Shown here in pieces: positions 38,342-48,272 of a stretch of DNA of 64,000 bases. The first letter of the stretch is position 1. Each line of letters begins with the position of its first letter. This DNA comes from Promethearchaeota archaeon (GTDB lineage Archaea; Asgardarchaeota; Lokiarchaeia; Sigyniarchaeales; SOKP01): contig JAEOTA010000085.1 of NCBI GenBank assembly GCA_016840085.1, positions 17,441-81,440 on the forward strand. Reading direction: 5' to 3'. The notes beneath the pieces are model-generated. The model saw only the letters and a program-made list of their open reading frames with translations, was not told the origin of the DNA and ran no database searches. The translations under genes were made by a program, and so were the position numbers.

Positions 38342-39517
38342 TTAGTCTCTTTGACTTAACACTGTAACAGAACAAACACTAAACGCACCACCAAGATTGT
38401 GGGCTAATCCCGTTTTAGCGTCCGGAACTTGTCTTCCTTCTGCTCGTCCTTGAAGCTGTCTAGTAATCTCTTGGAGCATTCTACAACCAGTTGATCCTAT
38501 AGGATGTCCAAATGATTTTAAACCACCTGATGGATTTACTGCTGTTTCCCCATCCCAATTAAACGTACCATTCTTTAATTCTTCGGCAGCCATTCCACGA
38601 TCACAGAATTGTAAATCCTGACAATTTAATAATTCTGTAATGGTAAAACAATCATGAACCTCAGCAGCATCAATTTCTTTTCGTGGATCAGTTATATCTG
38701 CTTCTTTATACGCCATCTCAGCTGCTTTAACAGTGGCAGGGGCATGAGTAAAATCAAAATTAGGCCAATACCATGGAATGCTTGTATACACGGCAATTGA
38801 GTTTGCTTTTACAACTACATAATCGTCTGCATGAGCATAACTTTCTGCAAGTTCTGGGCTTGTTAAAATAAGTGCTGCTGCACCATCACTCATTGCACAA
38901 CAATCATAGCGACCAAGGGGATCTGCAATCATTGGAGCATTCAATGCTTGTTCAATTGAAATTTTCATTCTGAAATGAGCTTTTGGATGATAATATCCAT
39001 TATCATGATTCTTAACAGCAACTCGCGCTAAATCTTCTTTTGTCCATCCATATTCCTGAAAACTACGGGTAGCAAGTAAACAAAACATTGCAGGAGCTGA
39101 TGGGCGGGGATATACAGGATGACCAAAATATTTTGCGCTAGGAAGTCCTCTACCACCTTCATCCATTAGTTTTTCTACACCACAGGCCATAACAACATCA
39201 TACGCACCGGAAGCAACACCAAAACAAGCATTGCGGAAGGCATCCATACCTGAAGCACAATAATTCTCACATCTAGTAATTGGTTTTCCACCTAATCTTA
39301 ATGTATCTTCTAAAGTGGCGCCAGAAACACCTGTGAAGAAATAATAAACACCTAACCATGCTGCATCAATTTCATCTTTACTTACCCCTGCATCTTTGAA
39401 AGCACCATGGCATGCCTCACTTAAAAGGTCATACTGATTTTTATCCCAGAGTTCCCCATATTTCGTCGCGTCACATCCTATTATCGCAACCTGATCTTTT
39501 ATTCCATGTTTAACCAT
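38342..39517 (-). CDS. Archaeal-type acetyl-CoA acetyltransferase (thiolase), paralog 2
   Basis: YCASGMDAFRNA (active-site Cys), GHPIGSTGCRM, NLGGA. Start taken at ATG 39517 (the track starts at TTG 39526). About 80% aa identity to the neighbouring paralog. Confidence 0.85.
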   Translation of the reverse strand: MVKHGIKDQVAIIGCDATKYGELWDKNQYDLLSEACHGAFKDAGVSKDEIDAAWLGVYYFFTGVSGATLEDTLRLGGKPITRCENYCASGMDAFRNACFGVASGAYDVVMACGVEKLMDEGGRGLPSAKYFGHPVYPRPSAPAMFCLLATRSFQEYGWTKEDLARVAVKNHDNGYYHPKAHFRMKISIEQALNAPMIADPLGRYDCCAMSDGAAALILTSPELAESYAHADDYVVVKANSIAVYTSIPWYWPNFDFTHAPATVKAAEMAYKEADITDPRKEIDAAEVHDCFTITELLNCQDLQFCDRGMAAEELKNGTFNWDGETAVNPSGGLKSFGHPIGSTGCRMLQEITRQLQGRAEGRQVPDAKTGLAHNLGGAFSVCSVTVLSQRD

Positions 39518-39672
39518 AATACACAATCCAATAGTAATTTCTACTAAAATAATTAAGTTTTCTATTAAAAATTAATTGATTATATTAGTAAGAGTTTTTT
39601 AAATTTCCTAATATTTACACACAGTCTTAAAAAAAAGAAAAAGAAAAAAATAAGGATTTTTGTTATAAAATC

Positions 39673-40860
39673 TTAATCTCTTTGACCTAAAATAGTTACA
39701 GAGCACACACTATATGCTCCACCGAGATTGTGGCATAAACCTAATTTAGCGTCTGGAACTTGTCTTCCTTCTGCACGTCCTTGAAGTTGTTTAGTAATTT
39801 CTGTTAACATTCGACAACCTGTAGATCCTATTGGATGACCAAATGATTTCAGACCACCTGATGGATTTGTTGCTGTTTCACTATCCCAATTGAAGGTTCC
39901 ATTCTTTAATTCCTCGGCAGCCATTCCACGATCACAGAATTTCAAATCCTGACAATTAATTAATTCTGTAATTGTAAAACAGTCATGAATCTCAGCACAA
40001 TCAATTTCTTTTCGTGGATCAGTTATATCTGCTTCTTTATACGCCATCTCAGCTGCTTTAACAGTAGCAGGAAAGCTTGTAAAGTCAGCTCCAGGCCCAT
40101 TAGAAGGCACATACCATGGGGTATTAGTTCTGCATGAAAGAGCATTTGCTTTTACTAATATATAATCATCAGCATGAGCATAACTCTCTGCAAGTTCTGG
40201 TGTAGTCAATATTAGAGCTGCAGCGCCATCTGACATGGCACAGCAATCAAATCGTCCAAGAGGATCAGCAATCATAGGTGCATTCATTGCTTGTTCAATT
40301 GATATTTTTCTTCTAAAGTGAGCTTTTGGATGATAAGAACCGTTATCATGATTTTTCACTGCAACTCGAGCCAGATCTTCTTTTGTCCACCCAAATTCAT
40401 GAAAACTGCGGGTAGCAGCCATAGAGAACATTGCAGGAGCGGATGGGAGAGGTAATACAGGATGTCCGAAAATTTTGAATCCTGGAAGTCCACTTGACCC
40501 TTCATCCATTAGTTTTTCTACACCACAGGCCATAACAACATCATACACACCCGAAGCAATAGCAAAACAAGCATTTCGAAAGGCATCCATTCCTGAAGCA
40601 CAATAATTTTCTGTTCTCGTAATTGGTATTCCATCTAATCTTAACATATCCTCAATTGTAGCACCAGACATTCCTGTGAAATAATAATATATCCCCGCCC
40701 ATGCTGCTTCAATCTCATCTTTTTTAATGCCAGCATCTTTGTAAGCATCTCGAGCTGCTTCAAAAAGTAAATCATACTGACTTTTATCCCAGAGTTCTCC
40801 ATATTTTGTCATATCACAACCAATTATAGCAACTCTATCTCTTATCCCTTTAGTTACCAT
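39673..40860 (-). CDS. Archaeal-type acetyl-CoA acetyltransferase (thiolase), paralog 1
   Basis: Same motifs as paralog 2. GGAGGT Shine-Dalgarno 7-8 nt upstream. 16 nt downstream of the HMGCS-DUF35 gene. Confidence 0.85.
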   Translation of the reverse strand: MVTKGIRDRVAIIGCDMTKYGELWDKSQYDLLFEAARDAYKDAGIKKDEIEAAWAGIYYYFTGMSGATIEDMLRLDGIPITRTENYCASGMDAFRNACFAIASGVYDVVMACGVEKLMDEGSSGLPGFKIFGHPVLPLPSAPAMFSMAATRSFHEFGWTKEDLARVAVKNHDNGSYHPKAHFRRKISIEQAMNAPMIADPLGRFDCCAMSDGAAALILTTPELAESYAHADDYILVKANALSCRTNTPWYVPSNGPGADFTSFPATVKAAEMAYKEADITDPRKEIDCAEIHDCFTITELINCQDLKFCDRGMAAEELKNGTFNWDSETATNPSGGLKSFGHPIGSTGCRMLTEITKQLQGRAEGRQVPDAKLGLCHNLGGAYSVCSVTILGQRD

Positions 40861-40876
40861 TTTTTATCTACCTCCT

Positions 40877-42316
40877 TTACGGTCTCCCTCTTTCAGGGCG
40901 ACATTTCCAATAATAATTTAAAAATTCAGCTCCTTCATGTTCTTTTCTAAACGTCAATTCAACTCTCATACCTATATGAACTTTTTCCTCAGGTTTGTCT
41001 ATTTCTGTCATATTTAATAGAACTCTTCCACCACCATCTAAATCAATCACACATCGAGGTACAGGTGTGGCAAAATAATTACCACCCACGAGATGATCTA
41101 AGGTAAATGTAAAGATGGTTCCTTTTAACTCGAGTTTTACCGGTTCTAACTGATCATCTGCTCTACACACATAACAAGAACGTAAAAAGTCTGGATATTG
41201 AATTGTTCCGCAATTTTTACATTTAACTCCATACCACTTATATACTGATGCTGCATCACGCCATAGCGTTACAGCAGAGCTTTTTCTTTTATATCTATCT
41301 TTTTCAAGAACCTCCTTAAAATCAATAAATTTACTGTAATCTTTTAAGGTTGCCATAGATTTTTGATGTCCGACGACACCCATTCGAGTTTTTCCAAGAT
41401 CTCTTAGAGCATTTCTGTCTCGAACTTGCATTAAAATTGCGTCTGCTCCATCTCCAAATCCTGCCATAATTATCTTTGCATCAGGTTTAGGTCTTCTTAA
41501 AGCGGAAATTAAAAGTATAAATGGCATTGGAGTTCCTAAATCACCAACTTGAAAAAATACACTGTTTTGAGCAACCCCTTGTGAAAATTTCATCATCTTA
41601 GCTACTCTACCGTGCATTCTAGGATTATTATAATAATAAGCAGCAGCACCAATATCCTCAGGTTTTAAATTATTTCTTTTTAAAATTTCTGACATTGTTT
41701 TAGTTATATTCTCAAGATAAAACCTAGCATCCATCTTTGCTTCAAATGTCCTTATAAATTTATCTTTATCAGCTCTTTTCCATGGTCCAGTAACATTAGC
41801 AGCAACTGAATAATAATCATCAATTGATAAAGCTAGATTATCATCTTCTGATATAAGTAAAGCAGCTGCCCCATCAGCAAATCCATATTCCCACATCGTT
41901 GATGGTTCTGGCACACGTGTATCTGCAGCAATTACAAGAATGTTTCTAATATCTTTATTTGCTTTAATAGTATCAACAGCTCGAGCAACTGCACTTGTTC
42001 CTGCTTTCAAAGAATCTGTAAAATCAGCAGTAATTATATCCTCTCTCATATCTAATATAGTGGCGAGTAAGGATGCTGAATCCTTTTCTGTATAGACTTG
42101 AGTTGTTGATGCAAAATATAATCCATCAATTGTTTTTGGATCAATTCCCATTAGGCAATCTAAACCGGCTTCAACTGACATAGTAATACTATCTTCATCT
42201 GCCATCGCAACAGCTTTAGTACCAGGAACGACAGGGAAATCCCATGCTTTCCCGATTAACTCTCTTGGTAATAGATATTTTGGCAAATAAGCTCCATATG
42301 ATTTAATTCCAATCAA
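40877..42316 (-). CDS. HMG-CoA synthase fused to a C-terminal DUF35 (zinc ribbon plus OB fold) domain
   Basis: Start re-set to TTG 42316 (GGAG 10 nt upstream), giving (M)IGIKSYGAYLPKY, typical of HMGCS. The C-terminus has CKNCGTIQYP...CYVCRADD followed by an OB-like segment. Confidence 0.8.
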   Translation of the reverse strand: MIGIKSYGAYLPKYLLPRELIGKAWDFPVVPGTKAVAMADEDSITMSVEAGLDCLMGIDPKTIDGLYFASTTQVYTEKDSASLLATILDMREDIITADFTDSLKAGTSAVARAVDTIKANKDIRNILVIAADTRVPEPSTMWEYGFADGAAALLISEDDNLALSIDDYYSVAANVTGPWKRADKDKFIRTFEAKMDARFYLENITKTMSEILKRNNLKPEDIGAAAYYYNNPRMHGRVAKMMKFSQGVAQNSVFFQVGDLGTPMPFILLISALRRPKPDAKIIMAGFGDGADAILMQVRDRNALRDLGKTRMGVVGHQKSMATLKDYSKFIDFKEVLEKDRYKRKSSAVTLWRDAASVYKWYGVKCKNCGTIQYPDFLRSCYVCRADDQLEPVKLELKGTIFTFTLDHLVGGNYFATPVPRCVIDLDGGGRVLLNMTEIDKPEEKVHIGMRVELTFRKEHEGAEFLNYYWKCRPERGRP

Positions 42317-42479
42317 TTTTAATTTTCTCCTTTTTTTGATTTTAGTATTTTGTTTTAAATTTATTATATATATGAATTTGAATGTAATAAGATAAAAATA
42401 TTTCTGCAAATTAGAATGAAAAAGTAACACAAAAAAAATATTTTTTGCAGAGTTGTATCCTTTATTGCTTTTATTTTTT

Positions 42480-42566: not shown

Positions 42567-42653
42567 ATGGGAGGATATCTACGAAATCTTTTTCAAATCA
42601 TTATTCTTAATTCACCTATAATTAGAATTTATATAAACAGATGGTTTAAATGA
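42567..42653 (+). CDS. Candidate 28-codon upstream ORF overlapping the lyase start (ATGA)
   Basis: MGGYLRNLFQIIILNSPIIRIYINRWFK*. TGA 42651-42653 overlaps ATG 42650-42652. No Shine-Dalgarno seen, so this is speculative. Confidence 0.25.
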   Translation: MGGYLRNLFQIIILNSPIIRIYINRWFK

Positions 42654-44047
42654 ATGGACCCCCCGAACCTTTTAAAATTAAGATGATTGAACATGTTGGA
42701 ATGCCAGATCAAATAAGAAGAAGTGAAGCAATTAGAGAAGCTGGTTATAATACATTTCTATTAAGATCCGAGGATGTTTACATTGATCTCCTAACCGATT
42801 CTGGTACATCCGCCATGTCAGATTATCAATGGAGTGGTCTTCTTTTAGGTGATGAAGCCTATGCTGGAGCCCGAAATTTTTATAATCTCGAAAAAGCAAT
42901 ACAGGATGTACTTGGTTATAAATATATCGTTCCAACTCACCAGGGTCGTGGTGCTGAGCATCTTATGTATAGTTACCTCGTAAAATCAGGTCAGCTTGTT
43001 CCAAGAAATATGTATTTTACTACTTCAAAACTCCATGTTGAGCTTCCTGGTGGAAAAATGGTTGATGTCATCATTGATGAGGCACATGATCCAGAAAATT
43101 TACATCTATTTAAGGGTAATATAGATTTCAAAAAATTACAAGCATTTATTGATGAATATGGAGTAGAAAAAATCGCTTTTGTGAATGTTGAAATGGACGT
43201 GAATATGGCAGGAGGGCAACCTGTATCTATGCAAAATCTTCGTGATTTACGAGAATTTTGCAACGATTATAATTTGAAAATAATATATGATGCTACAAGA
43301 TCGAGTGAAAATGCATATTTTATTCGAGAACGTGAAAGAGGTTATGAAAATACACCAATTATAGATATTTTGAGAGAAATGATGAGTTATTCTGATGGAT
43401 GTATTTATAGTTCAAAAAAGGACTGTCTAGTAAATATTGGTGGTTTTCTTGCCACAAGTGATAAGGATATTTTTGAACATTGCCGTAATATGGTTGTTGT
43501 TTATGAGGGATTGCATACTTATGGAGGTATGGCGGGTCGAGATATGGAAGCTGTAGCAAGAGGATTAAAAGAAAGCACATCATATGAATATTTAAAGTAT
43601 AGGATAAATCAAGTTCGCTATCTGGGCGATTTATTGATGAAAGCAGGAGTTCCTATCGTAAAACCTACAGGTGGGCACGGTGTATTTATAAATGCATTAA
43701 AATTTTTACCCCATCTTGAAAGAAAACAATGGCCCGCCCAAACCCTTGCTGCAGCCATTTATGAAGACTCGGGCGTCAGAAGTATGGAACGAGGTGCAGT
43801 ATCAAAAGGACGAGATAAAGAAACAGGGGAAAACATCTTTCCAGCATTAGAGCTCGTGAGACTCACAATTCCTCGAAGAGTTTACACAAACACACATATG
43901 GAGTATACAGCGGAGTCAGTAATTCGCCTATATGAAAAGCGAGACTCTATCAGAGGTTTAAAGATGGTATATGAACCAGAATATCTCCGTTTTTTTCAAT
44001 CTCGTTTTGAAGTCCTAGAGTCATCAAAGTCATACTTAGAGACATAA
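42650..44047 (+). CDS. Beta-eliminating lyase family: tryptophanase / tyrosine phenol-lyase
   Basis: 465 aa. PLP-lysine motif YSSKKDCLVNIGGFL, DLLTDSGT, C-terminal LRFFQSRFE. The last ~12 residues (VLESSKSYLET) lie beyond the duplicated segment. Confidence 0.85.
   Translation: MNGPPEPFKIKMIEHVGMPDQIRRSEAIREAGYNTFLLRSEDVYIDLLTDSGTSAMSDYQWSGLLLGDEAYAGARNFYNLEKAIQDVLGYKYIVPTHQGRGAEHLMYSYLVKSGQLVPRNMYFTTSKLHVELPGGKMVDVIIDEAHDPENLHLFKGNIDFKKLQAFIDEYGVEKIAFVNVEMDVNMAGGQPVSMQNLRDLREFCNDYNLKIIYDATRSSENAYFIRERERGYENTPIIDILREMMSYSDGCIYSSKKDCLVNIGGFLATSDKDIFEHCRNMVVVYEGLHTYGGMAGRDMEAVARGLKESTSYEYLKYRINQVRYLGDLLMKAGVPIVKPTGGHGVFINALKFLPHLERKQWPAQTLAAAIYEDSGVRSMERGAVSKGRDKETGENIFPALELVRLTIPRRVYTNTHMEYTAESVIRLYEKRDSIRGLKMVYEPEYLRFFQSRFEVLESSKSYLET
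43845..44011 (+). repeat. Direct repeat copy 1 (3' end of lyase gene)
   Basis: 167 bp aligning without gaps to 45617..45783, by eye about 85% identity, offset 1772 bp. Confidence 0.85.
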
Positions 44048-44383
44048 CAATTGCGACTATCAAACACAAATTTAGTAATTTTCTATATTTTTTCATACAT
44101 TTACTCACTTTTGATTTCTTTAATTTTCGATTATTTTCAAAATGTTTATGATTAAAAAAAAAAAAATCACCTCTAATATTTAACATTTTTCTTAAGAGGG
44201 AAAATTAGATGCAGGAAATTAAGAAAATAAGCAAGAAAATGACTAAGATTTTATAATTTTAAGCTCTTTTAATTTATTGTTTATTGGAAATTTGTCGGGG
44301 TCCTGACTATTAATTTTCCGTGCAATTATCAGTGTAGTGAGAAGTCAAAAAGATACAGGGATATACAACGTGGCTTTGGAATT

Positions 44384-45289
44384 GTGTTAGAGGGTATTGG
44401 AGAGAGACATAGTAATTATAACCAAATCTTATATAATGAATTATATTATGGGGATGTGGGGATTTATTTAGATAATTCAAATTATAATACCATTAAATAT
44501 AATACTTTTTTTAAAAATCGAGTATTTATACAAGAAGAAAATAATTGTATAGGAAATATTATTGAAGACAATTATTACGTAAAAAGAGCTTATTTTAATT
44601 GGTCTATTATAATTATAGCAGTAATAGTCTTAATAATCATATCTGTGTGTATTTTTTTATATTATAAATTAAAGAAGAAGAAAGCCTCTATGAAATCAGA
44701 AACTGAAGATGAAATAGCGGAGTCAGTCACTATCCAAAGTGAAACATTGATTTCTGAAGAAGAGCAGACTCCAAAGATATTTCCACATGAAATTGAACAA
44801 AAAGAGTCTCAAACTTCTATGGTTGAATCCATCTCTGTTGAAGATGATGTACCACCCCTTATAGAGCAACTTCCTGAAATCAGTCCTGTAGATAAATTTA
44901 ACATTTTTTTAAGCTATTCTACTTTAGATTCGCAGTATTTCCAAATAGAAAAGATTGTGGAGCTTCTGGAGCAATATCCCGAAATTGGTAAGATATATTA
45001 TTGGGAAGCGGACAGTAAAGAAAATATCGTTGAATTTATGAATGAGACCTTAAAAAAAATTAATGTATTTATTCTCCTCTGCAGTGAGAATTCACTCAAA
45101 TCTAAAGCTGTGAATGACGAATGGCAAGCAGCGTTTCAGATGCGAAAAGAAGGATTATTAAAAATTATCCCTGTATATGAACAACAAGACCATATACCAA
45201 ATATCTTATGGCATTTACTTAATGTAAAGTATACCAAAGACGACTTTAAAGGCTTTCTTGAGAACTTGCATCGTGAAATTTTGAGATAA
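44384..45289 (+). CDS. Membrane-anchored TIR-domain protein with a short N-terminal beta-helix (PbH1-like) remnant
   Basis: N-terminus GIYLDNSNYNTIKYNTFFKN, TM helix WSIIIIAVIVLIIISVCIFLYY, acidic linker. TIR: FNIFLSYSTLDS...VFILLCSENSLKSKAVNDEWQAAF...IIPVY, with the conserved Glu. Confidence 0.7.
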   Translation: MLEGIGERHSNYNQILYNELYYGDVGIYLDNSNYNTIKYNTFFKNRVFIQEENNCIGNIIEDNYYVKRAYFNWSIIIIAVIVLIIISVCIFLYYKLKKKKASMKSETEDEIAESVTIQSETLISEEEQTPKIFPHEIEQKESQTSMVESISVEDDVPPLIEQLPEISPVDKFNIFLSYSTLDSQYFQIEKIVELLEQYPEIGKIYYWEADSKENIVEFMNETLKKINVFILLCSENSLKSKAVNDEWQAAFQMRKEGLLKIIPVYEQQDHIPNILWHLLNVKYTKDDFKGFLENLHREILR

Positions 45290-45330
45290 TAGAGAGAAAT
45301 ATAAATAACAGATTCAACATACTCTTTCTA

Positions 45331-45340
45331 TTTTTTTTTT
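45331..45340 (+). terminator. Oligo-T tract (T10) downstream of the TIR gene
   Basis: T10 lies 42 nt after the TIR stop. Archaeal RNA polymerase terminates at oligo-T. Confidence 0.4.
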
Positions 45341-45471
45341 AAATATGTACCTATTACTTTAGAGTAATAGAAAGAGCAGTAGTGAGAGCGAAGACAAATA
45401 GACGAAAATGTGTCTTACCTTATGATATTTGAAATATATGAAAAAAAGAAAATAAAGACATAAGAATAATT

Positions 45472-45792
45472 ATGGGAGTAATTGATAATTATCTTAAATC
45501 AAAAGAAAAGAAGAAATACTATTGCTTAAGCTGTTTCCTGTATACCAAGAAAAGATATGTTCTCCATGTTCTTGAAGATGAGACAGGAAAGGTATATAAA
45601 TGTCCAAATTGTCCACCATTAGAGCTCGTTAGACTCACAATTCCTCGAAGGGTCTATACTAACACACATTTGGAATATACGGCGGAATCAGTGATTCGCC
45701 TATATGAAAAACGGGACACTATTAGAGGGTTAAAAATGGTATATGAGCCCCAATATCTACGGTTTTTTCAGGCGCGATTTGAAAAATTATAA
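45472..45792 (+). CDS. Chimeric ORF: novel zinc-ribbon N-terminus fused in frame to the duplicated lyase C-terminus
   Basis: MGVIDNYLKSKEKKKYYCLSCFLYTKKRYVLHVLEDETGKVYKCPNCPP plus LELVRLTIPRRVYTNTHLEYTAESVIRLYEKRDTIRGLKMVYEPQYLRFFQARFEKL*. Confidence 0.5.
   Translation: MGVIDNYLKSKEKKKYYCLSCFLYTKKRYVLHVLEDETGKVYKCPNCPPLELVRLTIPRRVYTNTHLEYTAESVIRLYEKRDTIRGLKMVYEPQYLRFFQARFEKL
45617..45783 (+). repeat. Direct repeat copy 2 (lyase 3' end)
   Basis: See copy 1. It ends in FQARFEKL*, which resembles a canonical lyase C-terminus. Confidence 0.85.
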
Positions 45793-45961: not shown

Positions 45962-46663
45962 TTATTCTCTAACCTTTTCTATGGATAAAATAACTCTTTT
46001 TAATTCCCAATTAGGATCTCTCTTACCAGGAAATTCCAAAATCTCCTTACATTGTAAACCCAAATTTTCTAAAAGTCCATTCCATTCTTGTACTGTTAAA
46101 ACTTTTGAACTTTTTTCACCTTTATATTTCCTTCTGATTATTTTTTGAAAAATAAATCCGATAATTTTTCCTATTTTTGTGCGCCATTTATCTGGGGCAC
46201 ATATATCTGCTATTACTAATCTTCCATTATTTTTTATGACTCTTTTAAACTCATTTAATGCTTTTTCAACCTTCATATGACGGATAGCAAAAGAGCTTAT
46301 TATCAAATCAAATGAACTATCACTAAAAGGAATATTTTCTCCATTTCCCTTTTCTGTAATAATAAAGTTTTCAAAACCTTGCTCTTTTATATTTTTTTTA
46401 GCAATCGCAATCATTTCATCCACGGGTTCAAGAGCAATTATCTTAAAGTTATTAGATATCTTTTTTGCAAGAGCTAAAGAAGTGAGTCCTGTTCCTGCTC
46501 CTACATCTAATATTCTAATATCGGGTTTTAATTCACATAATTTTATAAAAGATTTCATAAAATCTTCATAATTAATACCTGATCTCTCAAACATCCTTAA
46601 CTTATCATCCTCATAAGAAAGAGCCCATTTTTTATATTGTTCTTCAATTTTTTTTTCTTTCAT
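45962..46663 (-). CDS. Class I SAM-dependent methyltransferase
   Basis: Motif I ILDVGAGTGLTSLAL and post-I/II regions (FDLIISSFAIRHM, NGRLVIAD). Confidence 0.8.
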   Translation of the reverse strand: MKEKKIEEQYKKWALSYEDDKLRMFERSGINYEDFMKSFIKLCELKPDIRILDVGAGTGLTSLALAKKISNNFKIIALEPVDEMIAIAKKNIKEQGFENFIITEKGNGENIPFSDSSFDLIISSFAIRHMKVEKALNEFKRVIKNNGRLVIADICAPDKWRTKIGKIIGFIFQKIIRRKYKGEKSSKVLTVQEWNGLLENLGLQCKEILEFPGKRDPNWELKRVILSIEKVRE

Positions 46664-46673
46664 TTTTTCATCT

Positions 46674-46889
46674 CTAATTTGGTTTTTCTACAATGAAATG
46701 TCCAAGCGCGTTTTTATACTTATAATTTAATTTAACAAAACCTGATTTTCTCAACAGATTTATACATTTTTTCTTAGATAAAAATTTCCATGATAAGAGA
46801 GGGCATGGAATAATCGTTCCAACAGTTCGCAATGGTTCTATTGATAGAAATTTACCTCTTGGACGAAGCACTCTAAAAACTTCTGACAA
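46674..46889 (-). pseudogene. C-terminal remnant of a second SAM methyltransferase (no SAM-binding N-terminus)
   Basis: SEVFRVLRPRGKFLSIEP is the typical Methyltransf_11 post-motif. An in-frame stop lies 2 codons upstream of the TTG. Confidence 0.5.
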
Positions 46890-47019
46890 GTATTTTTATA
46901 CCTCCTAACTTTAAGAAAAATAAAATAATTAGTATTCCCAAAATAACATCTATACTAATAATAAGATGAAAGTATCCAAATCCATAATATCCATAAAATG
47001 GTTTTTCTGATTTATTCAT
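46873..47019 (-). CDS. Small hydrophobic protein (48 aa), not in ORF track
   Basis: MNKSEKPFYGYYGFGYFHLIISIDVILGILIILFFLKLGGIKILVRSF*. GAGGT lies 2 nt upstream of the ATG. Immediately downstream of PadR. Confidence 0.35.
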   Translation of the reverse strand: MNKSEKPFYGYYGFGYFHLIISIDVILGILIILFFLKLGGIKILVRSF

Positions 47020-47030
47020 AACCTCATGCC

Positions 47031-47594
47031 TTATAAAAAATCTTCAATGACTTTTCGATTTTCCACTTCTTCCTTAAGCTCTTGAAGCCATTTCAATTCT
47101 GCTTCCCAATGAGCATAGTGATGTTTAATAATATAAATTGCAAAAAAGGGGATTTTTCTCTTTAATGTATCTATAAGACCTTTATGTTCCTTATTTTTTT
47201 TTTGAATATACTGAATTCGTTTATCAATGGCTTCAATAATTTCACTCTTAGATAAAATGGGCATGAATAATAACCCTACATCAAGAGGATATCGTATTGG
47301 CTGGATTTCGAAAAAATTTTTTCGAATCATTACAATTAATTCTGTTTTTCCCTTCTCTGTTATATGATATAATGTTCTTTCTGGACGTTCACTATCTTTT
47401 TCCTTTCTACTACTTAATAAACCTTCTTTTTCCATTTTTTCTAAATTGTAGTAGAGAGATCCATAAGAGATTTCCGTAAATTCGCCAATAGCCCATTGAT
47501 TTATCACTTTTTTAATCTCATATCCATGAATGGGTTTAGGAAATTCAAATAAAATCCCTAATAAAATCAATTTTGTAAGATTTTGAATTGCCAT
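47031..47594 (-). CDS. PadR-family transcriptional regulator
   Basis: Winged helix PIHGYEIKKVI...SYGSLYYNLEKMEKEGLL plus a C-terminal helical domain. Confidence 0.85.
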   Translation of the reverse strand: MAIQNLTKLILLGILFEFPKPIHGYEIKKVINQWAIGEFTEISYGSLYYNLEKMEKEGLLSSRKEKDSERPERTLYHITEKGKTELIVMIRKNFFEIQPIRYPLDVGLLFMPILSKSEIIEAIDKRIQYIQKKNKEHKGLIDTLKRKIPFFAIYIIKHHYAHWEAELKWLQELKEEVENRKVIEDFL

Positions 47595-47795: not shown

Positions 47796-48272
47796 TTAAA
47801 ACCTTTTTTCAAGCACGATAATGATTGGTTGAAATCCTGCTTTAGCAAAAACATCAAGTAATTTTTTATCTGTTTTATACGCAAGATTTATTCGAAGGGA
47901 GTCGCACCCCCATGACTCTAAAATTTGAGTAGCTTTATCCGCTAAGAGTTTTCCCACACCCTTACCAATAAATTCTTTTTTAGTGGCCCAATTATCAAGA
48001 TATCCGATATATCGCCCAAGAGTATTCTTCACAGCTTCAATCATTCCCATACTTACCACTTGACCGGTAGATTTTAATTCTGCGATTAAGGTTATTCTTT
48101 TTAAATTGGGTTTAAATTGCCGAAGCCCACTAGACTCTCTCCATTGTTTTTCATCAAAACCAATATCAAATAATTCATTAAGTTCTTTTAAAATTGCTAA
48201 AGTCGCCTGATAATCTGAAGTACGATAATTTCTAATTACAATATCTTCTTGTTTAATTTCTTCCTCTAACAT
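47796..48272 (-). CDS. GNAT-family N-acetyltransferase
   Basis: Motif A KKEFIGKGVGKLLADKATQILESWG. Confidence 0.8.
   Translation of the reverse strand: MLEEEIKQEDIVIRNYRTSDYQATLAILKELNELFDIGFDEKQWRESSGLRQFKPNLKRITLIAELKSTGQVVSMGMIEAVKNTLGRYIGYLDNWATKKEFIGKGVGKLLADKATQILESWGCDSLRINLAYKTDKKLLDVFAKAGFQPIIIVLEKRF

What the first reader, a model, noticed from the sequence alone, without database searches (positions are those of the whole stretch)
44384..45289. Membrane-anchored TIR protein with a truncated beta-helix ectodomain
The architecture read from the ORF is about 70 aa of PbH1/NosD-like beta-helix repeats (GIYLDNSNYNTIKYNTFFKN), one TM helix, an acidic Ser/Glu-rich linker, and a TIR domain that keeps the catalytic-type Glu (SKAVNDEWQAAF). 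The frame is open for 37 more codons upstream (to 44273). It continues the repeat pattern (RGFGIVLEG) but has no canonical start, so the ectodomain looks truncated. TIR domains with this Glu are NAD-cleaving effectors in many bacterial and archaeal defence systems. A single-gene TM-TIR with an extracellular sensor-like stub is unusual.
Basis: partly seen in the sequence, partly recalled or inferred. Interest (0 to 1): 0.65.

Follow-up and report, generated by a model that had tools for sequence, protein, structure and literature searches.

The report
Truncated archaeal membrane TIR receptor gene
This is a real gene for a membrane-anchored TIR-domain protein in a Lokiarchaeia-type (Asgard) archaeon, but this copy has lost its signal peptide and about nine-tenths of its outer domain and sits in a recombination scar; its intact relatives form a large family of receptor-like TIR proteins that I could not find described.

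Summary
ORF 44384-45289 (+, GTG start, 301 aa) encodes about three beta-helix rungs, one TM helix, a disordered acidic linker and a C-terminal TIR domain. Pfam TIR_2 scores 53.7 bits, the AlphaFold model has pLDDT 93, and Foldseek's best matches are solved TIR domains. The Glu of SKAVNDEW (E246) is invariant in the family and aligns with the Glu of the xDEL/KKEI helix motif of Cat1, AtTIR and 9m0n.

The gene is a 5'-truncated copy, not a stand-alone oddity. Promethearchaeota MAGs carry several paralogs each of a family built as signal peptide, 500-1900 aa ectodomain, TM, linker, TIR. The ectodomains hold beta-helix, periplasmic-binding-protein, SBP_bac_5 or WD40 domains. The window copy keeps only the membrane-proximal 73 aa, and homology stops about 15 nt upstream of the GTG.

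It lies between a beta-eliminating lyase gene and a displaced 172-nt copy of that gene's 3' end (85% identity, dN/dS 0.05), inside a 3.7-kb segment missing from eight related loci.

Most likely this is a recombination remnant of a receptor-type TIR gene whose TIR module is still intact. NAD-cleaving activity is inferred, not shown.

The parts
42650..44047 (+). Complete beta-eliminating lyase gene (tryptophanase / tyrosine phenol-lyase family), 465 aa. Conserved upstream flank of the variable segment. Its last ~9 residues (ESSKSYLET) extend past the usual family C-terminus.
   Evidence: Pfam Beta_elim_lyase 2.6e-73. 80 related loci at 68-88% aa identity, most matching residues 1-454/456 only.
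43840..44011 (+). Direct repeat copy 1 (3' end of the intact lyase gene).
   Evidence: the repeat finder D1: 172 nt, 85% identity to 45612-45783. Alignment.
44048..44368 (.). Spacer between the lyase stop and the truncation breakpoint. T-rich, with five stops in the TIR frame. Contains a 34-codon signal-peptide-like ORF (44051-44155) and an antisense 78-aa ORF (43950-44186), both without support.
   Evidence: Similarity of the 34-aa peptide to family signal peptides is not above shuffles. No blastn match in any fetched locus.
44369..44383 (+). Last bases of beta-helix homology upstream of the GTG (RGFGI). The 5' breakpoint of the truncated gene lies immediately upstream.
   Evidence: tblastn of full-length homologs starts at 44369-44375 and finds nothing further upstream in any frame. 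Alignment A3.
44384..44602 (+). Residues 1-73: stub of about three parallel beta-helix rungs, homologous to the membrane-proximal end of the family ectodomain.
   Evidence: NosD 26 bits. TIGR03804 25 bits. blastp to L050 residues 542-652, L026 724-848, L025 930-1038 and others. AF2 beta strands 5-66, pLDDT 83-98.
44603..44665 (+). Residues 74-94: single transmembrane helix (SIIIIAVIVLIIISVCIFLYY), followed by KLKKKK on the predicted cytoplasmic side.
   Evidence: Hydropathy 3.48 over residues 74-92. AF2 helix 73-114. All homologs have K/R clusters after the TM helix.
44666..44893 (+). Residues 95-170: acidic Ser/Glu-rich linker, predicted disordered.
   Evidence: AF2 pLDDT below 50 for residues 112-167. 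Only P0004 has a similar linker.
44894..45289 (+). Residues 171-301 plus stop: TIR domain. Catalytic-type Glu E246 is codon 45119-45121, followed by invariant Trp247.
   Evidence: TIR_2 53.7 bits. AF2 pLDDT 93.1, pTM 0.88. Foldseek matches to MyD88, TRR-2, AbTir, TLR2 and SPARTA TIRs at E 7e-6 to 1e-4. Glu alignment to Cat1, AtTIR and 9m0n. Top leave-one-out HMM score, 232.5 bits.
45472..45792 (+). 106-aa ORF: a CxxC...CxxC N-terminal piece fused to the displaced last 57 codons of a lyase gene, ending in the usual family C-terminus ARFEKL*.
   Evidence: NCBIfam tyrosine phenol-lyase / tryptophanase C-terminal matches over residues 46-105.
45612..45783 (+). Direct repeat copy 2 (displaced lyase 3' end).
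   Evidence: 21 synonymous against 6 non-synonymous differences; dS 0.90, dN/dS 0.053.
45962..47594 (-). Rest of the variable segment: class I SAM methyltransferase (45962-46663), small ORFs, and a PadR regulator (47031-47594). Absent from relatives with the empty site.
   Evidence: Pfam. No matches in the empty-site loci. Methyltransferases also follow the TIR genes in L088 and L126; their homology to this one was not shown (no tblastn match).
47796..48272 (-). GNAT acetyltransferase, the conserved downstream flank. In eight related loci it lies no more than 25 nt after the lyase gene.
   Evidence: Pfam Acetyltransf_1. Synteny in L064, L065, L068, L091, L108, L118, L129, L136.

Best explanation
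The ORF is a 5'-truncated copy of a gene from a family expanded in Lokiarchaeia-type Asgard archaea (Promethearchaeota).

Intact family members are type I membrane proteins with this order of parts:
- an N-terminal signal peptide;
- a 500-1900 aa extracellular region, made of parallel beta-helix alone or of a periplasmic-binding-protein, SBP_bac_5 or WD40 module on top of a membrane-proximal beta-helix;
- one TM helix;
- a variable cytoplasmic linker;
- a highly conserved C-terminal TIR domain carrying the catalytic-type Glu.

Inferred mechanism for the family: a ligand or surface contact at the ectodomain drives clustering, the cytoplasmic TIR domains self-associate, and they cleave NAD+. The result is either a nucleotide signal or NAD+ depletion.

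The window copy keeps the last ~73 aa of the beta-helix, the TM helix, the linker and an undecayed TIR. It has lost the signal peptide and roughly 90% of the ectodomain.

It arrived or was cut during recombination at the 3' end of the neighbouring lyase gene. A foreign lyase 3' end plus downstream DNA was joined in, and the resident 3' end was left behind as a remnant.

I consider it most likely a recent gene remnant with no sensor. If it is translated from the GTG, it would insert N-out/C-in as a ligand-independent membrane-tethered TIR.

Shown: the architecture, the fold, Glu conservation, the truncation, the family, and the recombination scar. Inferred: NADase activity, topology, activation by clustering, and non-functionality of this copy.
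For: Architecture and fold:
- Domain matches, TM helix and whole-ORF model.
- TIR fold.

Glu:
- E246 and W247 are invariant.
- In the profile alignments E246 aligns with the Glu in Cat1 'SDWCWDEL', AtTIR 'SSWCLDEL' and 9m0n 'SEWVKKEI'.

Family:
- 36 word-index hits, all named Promethearchaeota or Lokiarchaeota.
- 58 genomic loci with several paralogs per MAG.
- 23 of the 48 ORFs not cut by a contig end have an N-terminal signal or anchor, an ectodomain, a TM helix and a TIR, at 512-2206 aa.
- 186 clusters (50% identity) match at E<=1e-30, almost all with the TIR at the C-terminus.

Truncation:
- The stub aligns only to the membrane-proximal beta-helix of the relatives.
- Nothing lies upstream in any frame.
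- The 40 nt upstream of the GTG are coding-like rather than AT-rich, unlike most other gene starts in the window.

Intact TIR: highest leave-one-out HMM score of the set.

Recombination scar:
- 172-nt repeat with dN/dS 0.053 and dS 0.90.
- Eight empty-site relatives.
- The same pattern (lyase, insert, displaced lyase 3' end) occurs in L063 and L074.
- Other TIR genes sit directly after the lyase in L088 and L126.
Against: - The ORF is uninterrupted for 301 codons in ~30% GC DNA, where stop codons arise easily. A usable GTG lies 15 nt from the breakpoint. So it may still be expressed and under selection.
- Other short copies exist that may be functional: P0011/L142 has a 27-aa stub plus TM plus TIR, and L021 is a 321-aa TM-TIR with an ATG start.
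- The age of the truncation is unknown, because the nearest homolog is only ~70% identical even in the TIR.
- The Trp four residues before the Glu in Cat1, AtTIR and 9m0n is Ala or Ser here, so catalysis is not assured.
- The leave-one-out score is biased, because the homolog set was collected with this sequence as query.
- No partner or effector gene is present in the window.
- No expression data are available.
Confidence: 0.7

Rival explanations
1. Functional minimal TM-TIR effector. The 301-aa protein is a deliberate short form, a membrane-tethered TIR NADase acting alone or with paralogous full-length receptors in anti-virus defence. It would be comparable to the bacterial 1TM-TIR component of Rst_2TM_1TM_TIR or to a ThsB-like sensor.
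For: - The ORF and TIR are intact and the Glu is invariant.
- Short TM-TIR ORFs recur in the family: P0011/L142 and L021.
- The lyase-GNAT interval is a variable islet. In L063 it carries an SMC_N/AAA_23 ATPase cluster that looks defence-like, and in L088 and L126 it carries other TIR genes.
- Weak PADLOC ThsB1 match, 9.5e-5.
- Leao et al. list Rst_2TM_1TM_TIR among systems enriched in Asgard archaea (PMC11291487).
Against: - There is no signal peptide, no ATG, and no AT-rich promoter-like sequence directly upstream.
- Homology to the longer beta-helix runs through and beyond the start codon, which is what a cut gene looks like.
- There is no 2TM partner or ThsA-like gene nearby.
- P0004, the only relative sharing the stub and the acidic linker, is cut by its contig end, so it cannot show a conserved short form.
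Confidence: 0.25
2. Non-enzymatic TIR. The family's TIR domain works as an assembly or adaptor module, like TLR/MyD88 TIRs in the classical view, recruiting other TIR proteins rather than cleaving NAD+.
For: - Foldseek's best E-values are to MyD88, Hydra TRR-2 and TLR2 TIR domains.
- Soluble LRR-PCI-TIR and other cytoplasmic TIR paralogs with the same TIR module exist and could be adaptors.
- The Trp at position -4 in three aligned TIRs is missing.
Against: - The Glu is invariant across the family. Scaffold-only TIRs need not keep it.
- AbTir and SPARTA TIR NADases match with similar or better TM-scores, 0.71-0.78.
- A SLOG-containing neighbour in 11 loci suggests a nucleotide signal.
Confidence: 0.15
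3. Not immunity. The family are environmental or nutrient receptors (solute-binding ectodomains) that use TIR chemistry for ordinary signal transduction, and the window copy is a dead member of that signalling family.
For: - Ectodomains include Peripla_BP_6/ANF_receptor and SBP_bac_5 modules typical of solute sensing.
- The window neighbourhood is metabolic: thiolases, an HMG-CoA-synthase-like gene, the lyase, an MFS transporter.
- The recurrent neighbour carries a RelA_SpoT alarmone-synthetase-like domain.
Against: - There are many paralogs per genome, tandem arrays, frequent fragments and rapidly varying ectodomains on a constant TIR. This pattern is more typical of conflict systems.
- Known prokaryotic TIR proteins are overwhelmingly defence-related (general knowledge; PMC11350192 abstract).
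Confidence: 0.25
4. Artefact: a chance ORF or a chimeric assembly joining unrelated fragments.
For: - Both Logan unitigs stop at window position 45513, and one starts inside the repeat. This suggests strain heterogeneity around the locus.
Against: - Two independent assemblies reproduce 43382-45513 at 100% identity, spanning the lyase 3' end, the spacer and the entire TIR ORF.
- The domain matches are strong.
Confidence: 0.03

Closest known systems
Toll-like receptors (animal type I ectodomain-TM-TIR receptors)
   Same: Intact family members share the topology: signal peptide, large repeat-rich extracellular domain, single TM helix, cytoplasmic TIR. The TIR model matches TLR2, TLR10, Hydra TRR-2 and MyD88 TIR structures.
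   Different: - The ectodomain is parallel beta-helix, PBP, SBP or WD40 rather than LRR. LRR occurs only in soluble paralogs.
- The TIR sits at the extreme C-terminus after a long linker.
- No homology outside the TIR was found.
- The window copy lacks the signal peptide and the sensor.
- Common descent was not tested.
Thoeris ThsB (bacterial TIR sensor that makes cADPR-type signals for ThsA)
   Same: It is a TIR domain with a conserved Glu. There are weak matches to ThsB models: PF08937 at 20.3 bits and PADLOC ThsB1 at 9.5e-5. In 11 of 58 family loci a SLOG-domain protein is adjacent, and SLOG is the signal-binding domain of ThsA.
   Different: - The scores are below the Pfam cut-off of 21.2.
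- There is no ThsA (SIR2-SLOG or TM-Macro) in the window or the loci.
- The SLOG neighbour carries RelA_SpoT and TPR domains instead.
- ThsB proteins are soluble; this family is membrane-bound with big ectodomains.
Rst_2TM_1TM_TIR (two-gene bacterial defence system with a 1TM-TIR protein)
   Same: Both have a single TM helix plus a TIR in one polypeptide. The system is reported as enriched in Asgard genomes (PMC11291487).
   Different: - There is no 2TM partner gene next to the window ORF.
- No PADLOC model other than ThsB1 and CARF_2M matched.
- The window protein derives from a long-ectodomain receptor.
Solved prokaryotic TIR proteins closest by sequence profile: TIR-TPR protein 9m0n and CRISPR-associated Cat1 (9mud)
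   Same: These are the best profile matches, at 5.9e-6 and 8.9e-4. The region from beta-C to beta-D, including the Glu, aligns.
   Different: - Both are soluble proteins with other partner domains (TPR; CARF).
- Both have Trp at position -4 relative to the Glu, where this family has Ala or Ser and instead has an invariant Trp at +1.
NosD-like / PbH1 parallel beta-helix surface proteins
   Same: The stub and the family's membrane-proximal stalk match NosD, Beta_helix and TIGR03804 repeats.
   Different: - Only about three rungs remain in the window copy.
- Nothing links it to copper or N2O-reductase maturation. The TIGR04247 match is 24 bits against a cut-off of 300.

Membership tests
TIR domain superfamily (Pfam TIR_2, PF13676) | Profile match above the curated gathering score | tested here: met
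   53.7 bits against a cut-off of 28, E 3.7e-14.
TIR domain superfamily (Pfam TIR_2, PF13676) | Flavodoxin-like TIR fold (five-stranded parallel sheet with surrounding helices) matching solved TIR structures | tested here: met
   AF2 pLDDT 93.1. 52 PDB chains at E<=0.001; the 50 best listed are all TIR domains, with TM-scores up to 0.78.
NAD+-cleaving (enzymatic) TIR domains | Conserved catalytic Glu at the start of the helix after strand beta-C | tested here: met
   E246 is invariant. It aligns with the Glu of Cat1, AtTIR and 9m0n. The role of this position is described in PMC7075850.
NAD+-cleaving (enzymatic) TIR domains | Aromatic Trp four residues before the Glu (WxxxE), as in Cat1, AtTIR and 9m0n | tested here: not met
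   The family has S-K-A/S-V-x-D-E-W: Ala or Ser at position -4 and an invariant Trp at +1. Whether this feature is obligatory for activity rests on my own knowledge and is uncertain.
NAD+-cleaving (enzymatic) TIR domains | Measured Glu-dependent NAD+ consumption | not testable with these tools
   Requires biochemistry.
Thoeris (ThsA + ThsB) | ThsB-type TIR model match | tested here: inconclusive
   PF08937 at 20.3 bits against a cut-off of 21.2. PADLOC ThsB1 at 9.5e-5.
Thoeris (ThsA + ThsB) | Adjacent ThsA effector gene (SIR2-SLOG or TM-Macro) | tested here: not met
   The neighbours are the lyase, a methyltransferase, PadR, GNAT and thiolases. There is no homolog of the SLOG neighbour in the window.
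Rst_2TM_1TM_TIR | 1TM-TIR protein encoded next to a 2TM protein | tested here: not met
   The 1TM + TIR architecture is present, but no 2TM gene is adjacent. No PADLOC hit to such a model.
Toll-like receptors | LRR ectodomain, type I topology, cytoplasmic TIR | tested here: not met
   The ectodomain is beta-helix, not LRR, and the window copy has no signal peptide. The type I topology with a TIR is met only by full-length relatives.
Promethearchaeota receptor-like TIR family (defined here) | C-terminal TIR module with the FxSYST...CSxxSxxSxxVxxEWQ signature, at least 50% identical to other members | tested here: met
   53-71% identity to 29 members. Leave-one-out score 232.5 bits.
Promethearchaeota receptor-like TIR family (defined here) | Membrane-proximal beta-helix directly before a single TM helix followed by a K/R cluster | tested here: met
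Promethearchaeota receptor-like TIR family (defined here) | N-terminal signal peptide and an ectodomain of more than 250 aa | tested here: not met
   The ORF starts 73 aa before the TM helix. Upstream there is no start codon and no homology.

The most novel reading that the evidence does not exclude
Lokiarchaeia-type Asgard archaea possess a bona fide transmembrane receptor system with Toll-like-receptor topology and Thoeris-like chemistry. In this reading:
- variable extracellular sensors (beta-helix, PBP, SBP, WD40) control a cytoplasmic catalytic TIR;
- the TIR's NAD-derived product is read by SLOG-domain proteins such as the recurrent RelA_SpoT-TPR-SLOG neighbour;
- 5'-truncated TM-TIR copies like the one in this window are expressed and act as ligand-independent or dominant modulators of the full-length paralogs.
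Probability: 0.15. Interest if true: 0.85.

Novelty: new variant of a known kind. Interest (0 to 1): 0.58.

Why it matters
TIR domains connect bacterial anti-phage defence, plant immunity and animal Toll-like signalling. How the receptor format (extracellular sensor, TM helix, cytoplasmic TIR) arose is an open question.

The window ORF is only a broken copy. It does, however, point to a sizeable family in the archaeal lineage closest to eukaryotes that already has this receptor format:
- 186 clusters (50% identity) match at E<=1e-30, with several paralogs per genome.
- The TIR module is very conserved and keeps the Glu.
- The ectodomains are swappable.
- A nucleotide-sensor (SLOG) neighbour recurs in 11 of 58 loci.

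I found no description of this family in the searchable literature. If the family's TIR domains are active, they offer a direct test of whether outside-in TIR signalling exists in archaea.

The locus also documents a recurrent way of gaining DNA in these genomes: recombination anchored in a conserved gene's 3' end, which leaves a displaced copy of that end behind.

Tried and rejected
- Single-sequence phmmer of the TIR region against PDB gave only chance hits. A family profile was needed.
The Glu correspondence therefore rests on Cat1, AtTIR and 9m0n only.
- I searched for frameshifted beta-helix remnants upstream of 44369 by tblastn with seven longer homologs and found none.
- The signal-peptide-like 34-codon ORF at 44051-44155, in the same frame, was tested against the N-termini of 23 full-length members. 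Its score was not above shuffled controls (66% of shuffles scored as high). I rejected it as evidence of an internal deletion.
- P0004 looked like a conserved short form, with 43% identity over the whole length. Its gene starts at base 3 of a 1188-nt contig, so it is cut and uninformative.
- The sigma-70 promoter and terminator scan was at background level and is not applicable to archaea.
- There are no tRNA genes and no Rfam hits in the window, so there is no tRNA-type integration site.
- blastn of the spacers 44048-44370 and 45290-45611 against all 140 fetched loci found no source sequence.
- Homologs of the RelA_SpoT-TPR-SLOG, 526-aa coiled-coil and other recurrent neighbours were sought in the window and none was found.
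- A paper search for PDB codes 9M0N/9UMD returned nothing relevant.
- Inverted repeats flanking the ORF are A/T tracts only, so there is no sign of a transposon.
Full report
**1. The observation**

The ORF exists as described: 44384-45289 on the + strand, 301 aa, GTG start. The frame is open back to 44273 but holds no ATG, GTG or TTG before 44384.

Domain matches:
- Pfam TIR_2: E 3.7e-14, 53.7 bits against a cut-off of 28.
- Pfam NosD: 26.0 bits against a cut-off of 23.6.
- Pfam Beta_helix: just below its threshold.
- NCBIfam parallel-beta-helix repeat model: passes its cut-off.

A single very hydrophobic segment (residues 74-92) is followed by YYKLKKKK.

The AlphaFold model of the whole ORF, built on an alignment of 17 family members, shows four regions:
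- beta strands over residues 5-66 with high confidence;
- one long helix at 73-114;
- a disordered stretch at 112-167;
- a confident TIR fold at 172-300.

Two independent Logan assemblies reproduce window 43382-45513 at 100% identity, so the gene and its junction with the upstream lyase gene are not assembly artefacts.

**2. The TIR domain and its Glu**

The TIR domain alone, modelled with 30 homologs, gives pLDDT 93.1 and pTM 0.88. Foldseek against the PDB returns 52 chains at E<=0.001, and the 50 best listed are all TIR domains. They include MyD88, Hydra TRR-2, AbTir, TLR2, SPARTA TIR-APAZ, SARM1, Cat1 and plant TIRs, with TM-scores of 0.54-0.78.

A single-sequence search of PDB sequences found nothing meaningful. 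The family profile did:
- the TIR-TPR protein 9m0n, E 5.9e-6;
- the CRISPR-associated TIR Cat1, E 8.9e-4;
- Arabidopsis AtTIR, E 0.087.

In all three alignments the family's D-E-W Glu lies opposite the Glu of SEWVKKEI, SDWCWDEL or SSWCLDEL. [quoted passage not shown] In the window protein it is E246 (codon 45119-45121), and it is invariant in every family alignment I made.

One difference needs stating. The Trp four residues before the Glu in those three proteins is Ala or Ser in this family, which instead has an invariant Trp directly after the Glu. Catalysis remains an inference.

**3. What the gene is a piece of**

The word-index search returned 36 relatives. Every one that carries a name is from Promethearchaeota or Lokiarchaeota MAGs.

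The TIR module is 53-71% identical across them, while the N-terminal parts differ completely.

A scan of one genome per species found 58 loci. All are in Asgard MAGs, mostly Promethearchaeota, with four to six loci in several single MAGs.

Reconstructing the ORFs gave the following. Ten of the 58 are cut by contig ends. The other 48 divide as follows:
- 23 have an N-terminal K/R-rich hydrophobic signal or anchor, an ectodomain, one TM helix and a C-terminal TIR (512-2206 aa).
- 5 have a TM helix and a TIR with no detected signal peptide.
- 7 have an N-terminal multi-TM (three or four helices) block.
- 5 have no TM helix (four LRR-type paralogs and L047).
- 8 are short ORFs of under 350 aa; six (L003, L016, L018, L036, L058, L060) look like fragments.

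Pfam on ten full-length members shows these ectodomains:
- pure beta-helix (L004, L034);
- Peripla_BP_6/ANF_receptor plus beta-helix (L013, L026);
- SBP_bac_5 (L022);
- WD40 propeller plus beta-helix (L048).

In the exhaustive representative library the profile finds 186 clusters at E<=1e-30, almost all with the TIR at the very C-terminus, in proteins up to 2857 aa.

Paralogs often lie in tandem, for example three in L012.

**4. The window copy is cut at its 5' end**

The 73-aa stub plus TM helix aligns to the segment just before the TM helix of more than 25 members. Examples are L050 residues 542-652 of 880, L026 724-848 of 1144, and L025 930-1038 of 1269.

In the multiple alignment the stub corresponds to the last three rungs of the beta-helix. 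tblastn with longer homologs starts matching at 44369-44375, upstream of the GTG. Nothing further upstream matches in any frame.

The copy therefore lacks the signal peptide and roughly 90% of an ectodomain of the size seen in its nearest relatives.

The 40 nt before the GTG are comparatively G+C-rich and look like coding sequence. Most other gene starts in the window are preceded by A/T-rich sequence.

A signal-peptide-like 34-codon ORF lies 4 nt after the lyase stop, in the same frame but separated by five stops. It is no more similar to family signal peptides than shuffled versions are, so I do not count it.

The TIR part shows no decay. It has the top leave-one-out HMM score of the set, with the caveat that the set was collected using this sequence as query.

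Another copy with an even shorter stub (27 aa) plus TM helix plus TIR exists as a free-standing ORF (P0011, L142). P0004 looked like a conserved short form but is simply cut by its contig end.

**5. The locus**

The gene lies between a complete beta-eliminating lyase gene (tryptophanase / tyrosine phenol-lyase family, 42650-44047) and a 172-nt direct repeat of that gene's 3' end. The repeat copies are 43840-44011 and 45612-45783, at 85% identity. The second copy is embedded in a 106-aa ORF.

The two copies differ by 21 synonymous and 6 non-synonymous changes (dS 0.90, dN/dS 0.053). They therefore diverged as parts of functional genes in different lineages, not by decay in place.

Eighty related metagenomic loci show the conserved order HMG-CoA-synthase-like (-), lyase (+), GNAT (-), 352-aa gene (-). 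In eight of them the GNAT gene follows the lyase within 25 nt.

The window has 3.7 kb extra at this point:
- the TIR remnant;
- the displaced lyase end;
- a methyltransferase;
- small ORFs;
- a PadR regulator.

Other relatives also vary here:
- L063 has a 5.1-kb insert with an SMC_N/AAA_23 ATPase and unknown genes, flanked by a ~475-nt lyase repeat at ~92% identity.
- L074 has a 1.15-kb insert followed by a 17-aa lyase remnant.
- L079 carries an unannotated 396-aa ORF and a 254-aa multi-pass membrane ORF.
- L088 and L126 carry other TIR genes directly after the lyase, each followed by a methyltransferase.

The simplest reading is repeated acquisition of DNA from related archaea. One crossover falls in the conserved lyase gene and an illegitimate join falls inside the recipient's lyase 3' end, which survives as the remnant. 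This is my inference.

The rest of the neighbourhood is housekeeping. None of the family's recurrent neighbours is present in the window.

**6. Mechanism**

*Shown:* the architecture, the fold, the conserved Glu, membership in a receptor-like family, the truncation, and the recombination scar.

*Inferred for the family:*
- The K/R cluster after the TM helix and the N-terminal signal peptides place the ectodomain outside and the TIR inside.
- By analogy with known TIR enzymes, which act on self-association, ligand-driven clustering would switch on NAD+ cleavage.
- A possible reader of a nucleotide product is the ~856-aa RelA_SpoT + TPR + SLOG protein (LSDAT_prok 24.0 bits against a cut-off of 25.4). 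It lies next to family TIR genes of differing architecture in 11 of 58 loci from 10 MAGs. I could not separate functional linkage from conserved synteny.

*Inferred for the window copy:*
- Without a signal peptide and sensor it is most likely a recent remnant.
- If translated from the GTG, it would be an N-out/C-in membrane-tethered TIR without ligand control.
- The uninterrupted 301-codon frame in ~30% GC DNA keeps the functional-short-form rival alive. I give that rival 0.25.

**7. Comparison with known systems and novelty**

The protein is a TIR-superfamily member, and those tests are met. It does not qualify for the following:
- **Thoeris:** there is no ThsA, and the ThsB models score below cut-off.
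- **Rst_2TM_1TM_TIR:** there is no 2TM partner.
- **Toll-like receptors:** there is no LRR ectodomain and no homology outside the TIR.

It works most like a TLR in topology and most like bacterial and plant TIR enzymes in its conserved Glu.

Searches of the held literature found no description of receptor-type TIR proteins in Asgard archaea. Leao et al. only list Rst_2TM_1TM_TIR among systems enriched in Asgard genomes. Absence from this library does not prove the family is unpublished.

I rate the window ORF itself as ordinary: a broken paralog. The family it reveals is a new variant of a known kind.

- Interest: 0.58.
- Most novel reading not excluded: an archaeal outside-in TIR receptor pathway feeding SLOG-domain effectors, with truncated copies as modulators. 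Probability about 0.15; interest if true 0.85.

Noticed in passing
window 43840-44011 and 45612-45783; L063 4433-4909 and 10057-10539; L074 2530-2589: The 3' end of the beta-eliminating lyase gene is a recurrent insertion point. Three independent loci show the order intact lyase, inserted DNA, displaced lyase 3' end. The remnants are 172, ~475 and ~60 nt long and differ from the intact copy mostly at synonymous sites. Eight relatives have the empty site.
   Followed up: partly
L028 7011-9602; also L012, L019, L020, L023, L024, L031, L036, L040, L055, L058: An ~856-aa protein with RelA_SpoT (43.5 bits), TPR repeats and a SLOG domain (LSDAT_prok, 24 bits, just under its cut-off) lies next to family TIR genes of different architectures in 11 of 58 loci from 10 MAGs. 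It is a candidate reader or effector for a TIR-made nucleotide, or the pairing may be conserved synteny only. One TIR paralog (P0035) is itself fused to LSDAT_prok.
   Followed up: partly
L063 5036-9921: The 5.1-kb insert at the same lyase site carries a 616-aa SMC_N/AAA_23 ATPase plus four ORFs without Pfam matches (272, 235, 184 and 261 aa). This is a possible defence-type cassette.
   Followed up: partly
L088 6036-6923; L126 1696-1947: Other TIR genes sit directly downstream of the lyase gene in related metagenomic contigs, each followed by a methyltransferase on the opposite strand. One is a 295-aa soluble TIR protein (38% identical TIR, motif KKEW). The other is an 83-aa C-terminal TIR fragment.
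   Followed up: partly
window 45472-45792: A 106-aa ORF fuses a CxxC...CxxC zinc-ribbon-like N-terminus to the displaced lyase C-terminus. It has an ATG and an A/T-rich upstream region. Whether it is expressed is unknown.
   Followed up: partly
window 44051-44155: A 34-codon signal-peptide-like ORF lies in the same frame as the TIR ORF, 4 nt after the lyase stop, separated from it by five stops. Its similarity to family signal peptides is not above shuffled controls. It is probably just T-rich terminator DNA.
   Followed up: yes
window 45513: Both Logan unitigs from two sequencing runs end exactly at this position, and one begins inside repeat copy 1. This hints at strain variants around the insert.
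   Followed up: no
L012 (three TIR genes), L015, L034, L038, L044, L051; L036 (with a fragment): Receptor-type TIR paralogs often lie in tandem arrays. Neighbouring giant surface proteins with a C-terminal TM anchor but no TIR also occur (for example L023 72-6119, 2015 aa, highly repetitive).
   Followed up: no
L041 6945-8396 (also L042, L046, L049): Soluble paralogs combine LRR repeats, a PCI-like winged-helix segment and the same TIR module. These are cytoplasmic LRR-TIR proteins in Asgard archaea. A similar winged-helix segment sits in the linker of several membrane members (P0009, P0010, P0017).
   Followed up: no
P0037-P0040 (representative library): Some family members carry two to four tandem copies of the TIR module in one protein.
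   Followed up: no
window 40877-42430 (-) and 38342-40860 (-): A 517-aa HMG-CoA-synthase-like protein fused to a ChsH2-type OB-fold domain lies next to two thiolase paralogs. This looks like an archaeal mevalonate-pathway module and is conserved in synteny with the lyase.
   Followed up: no
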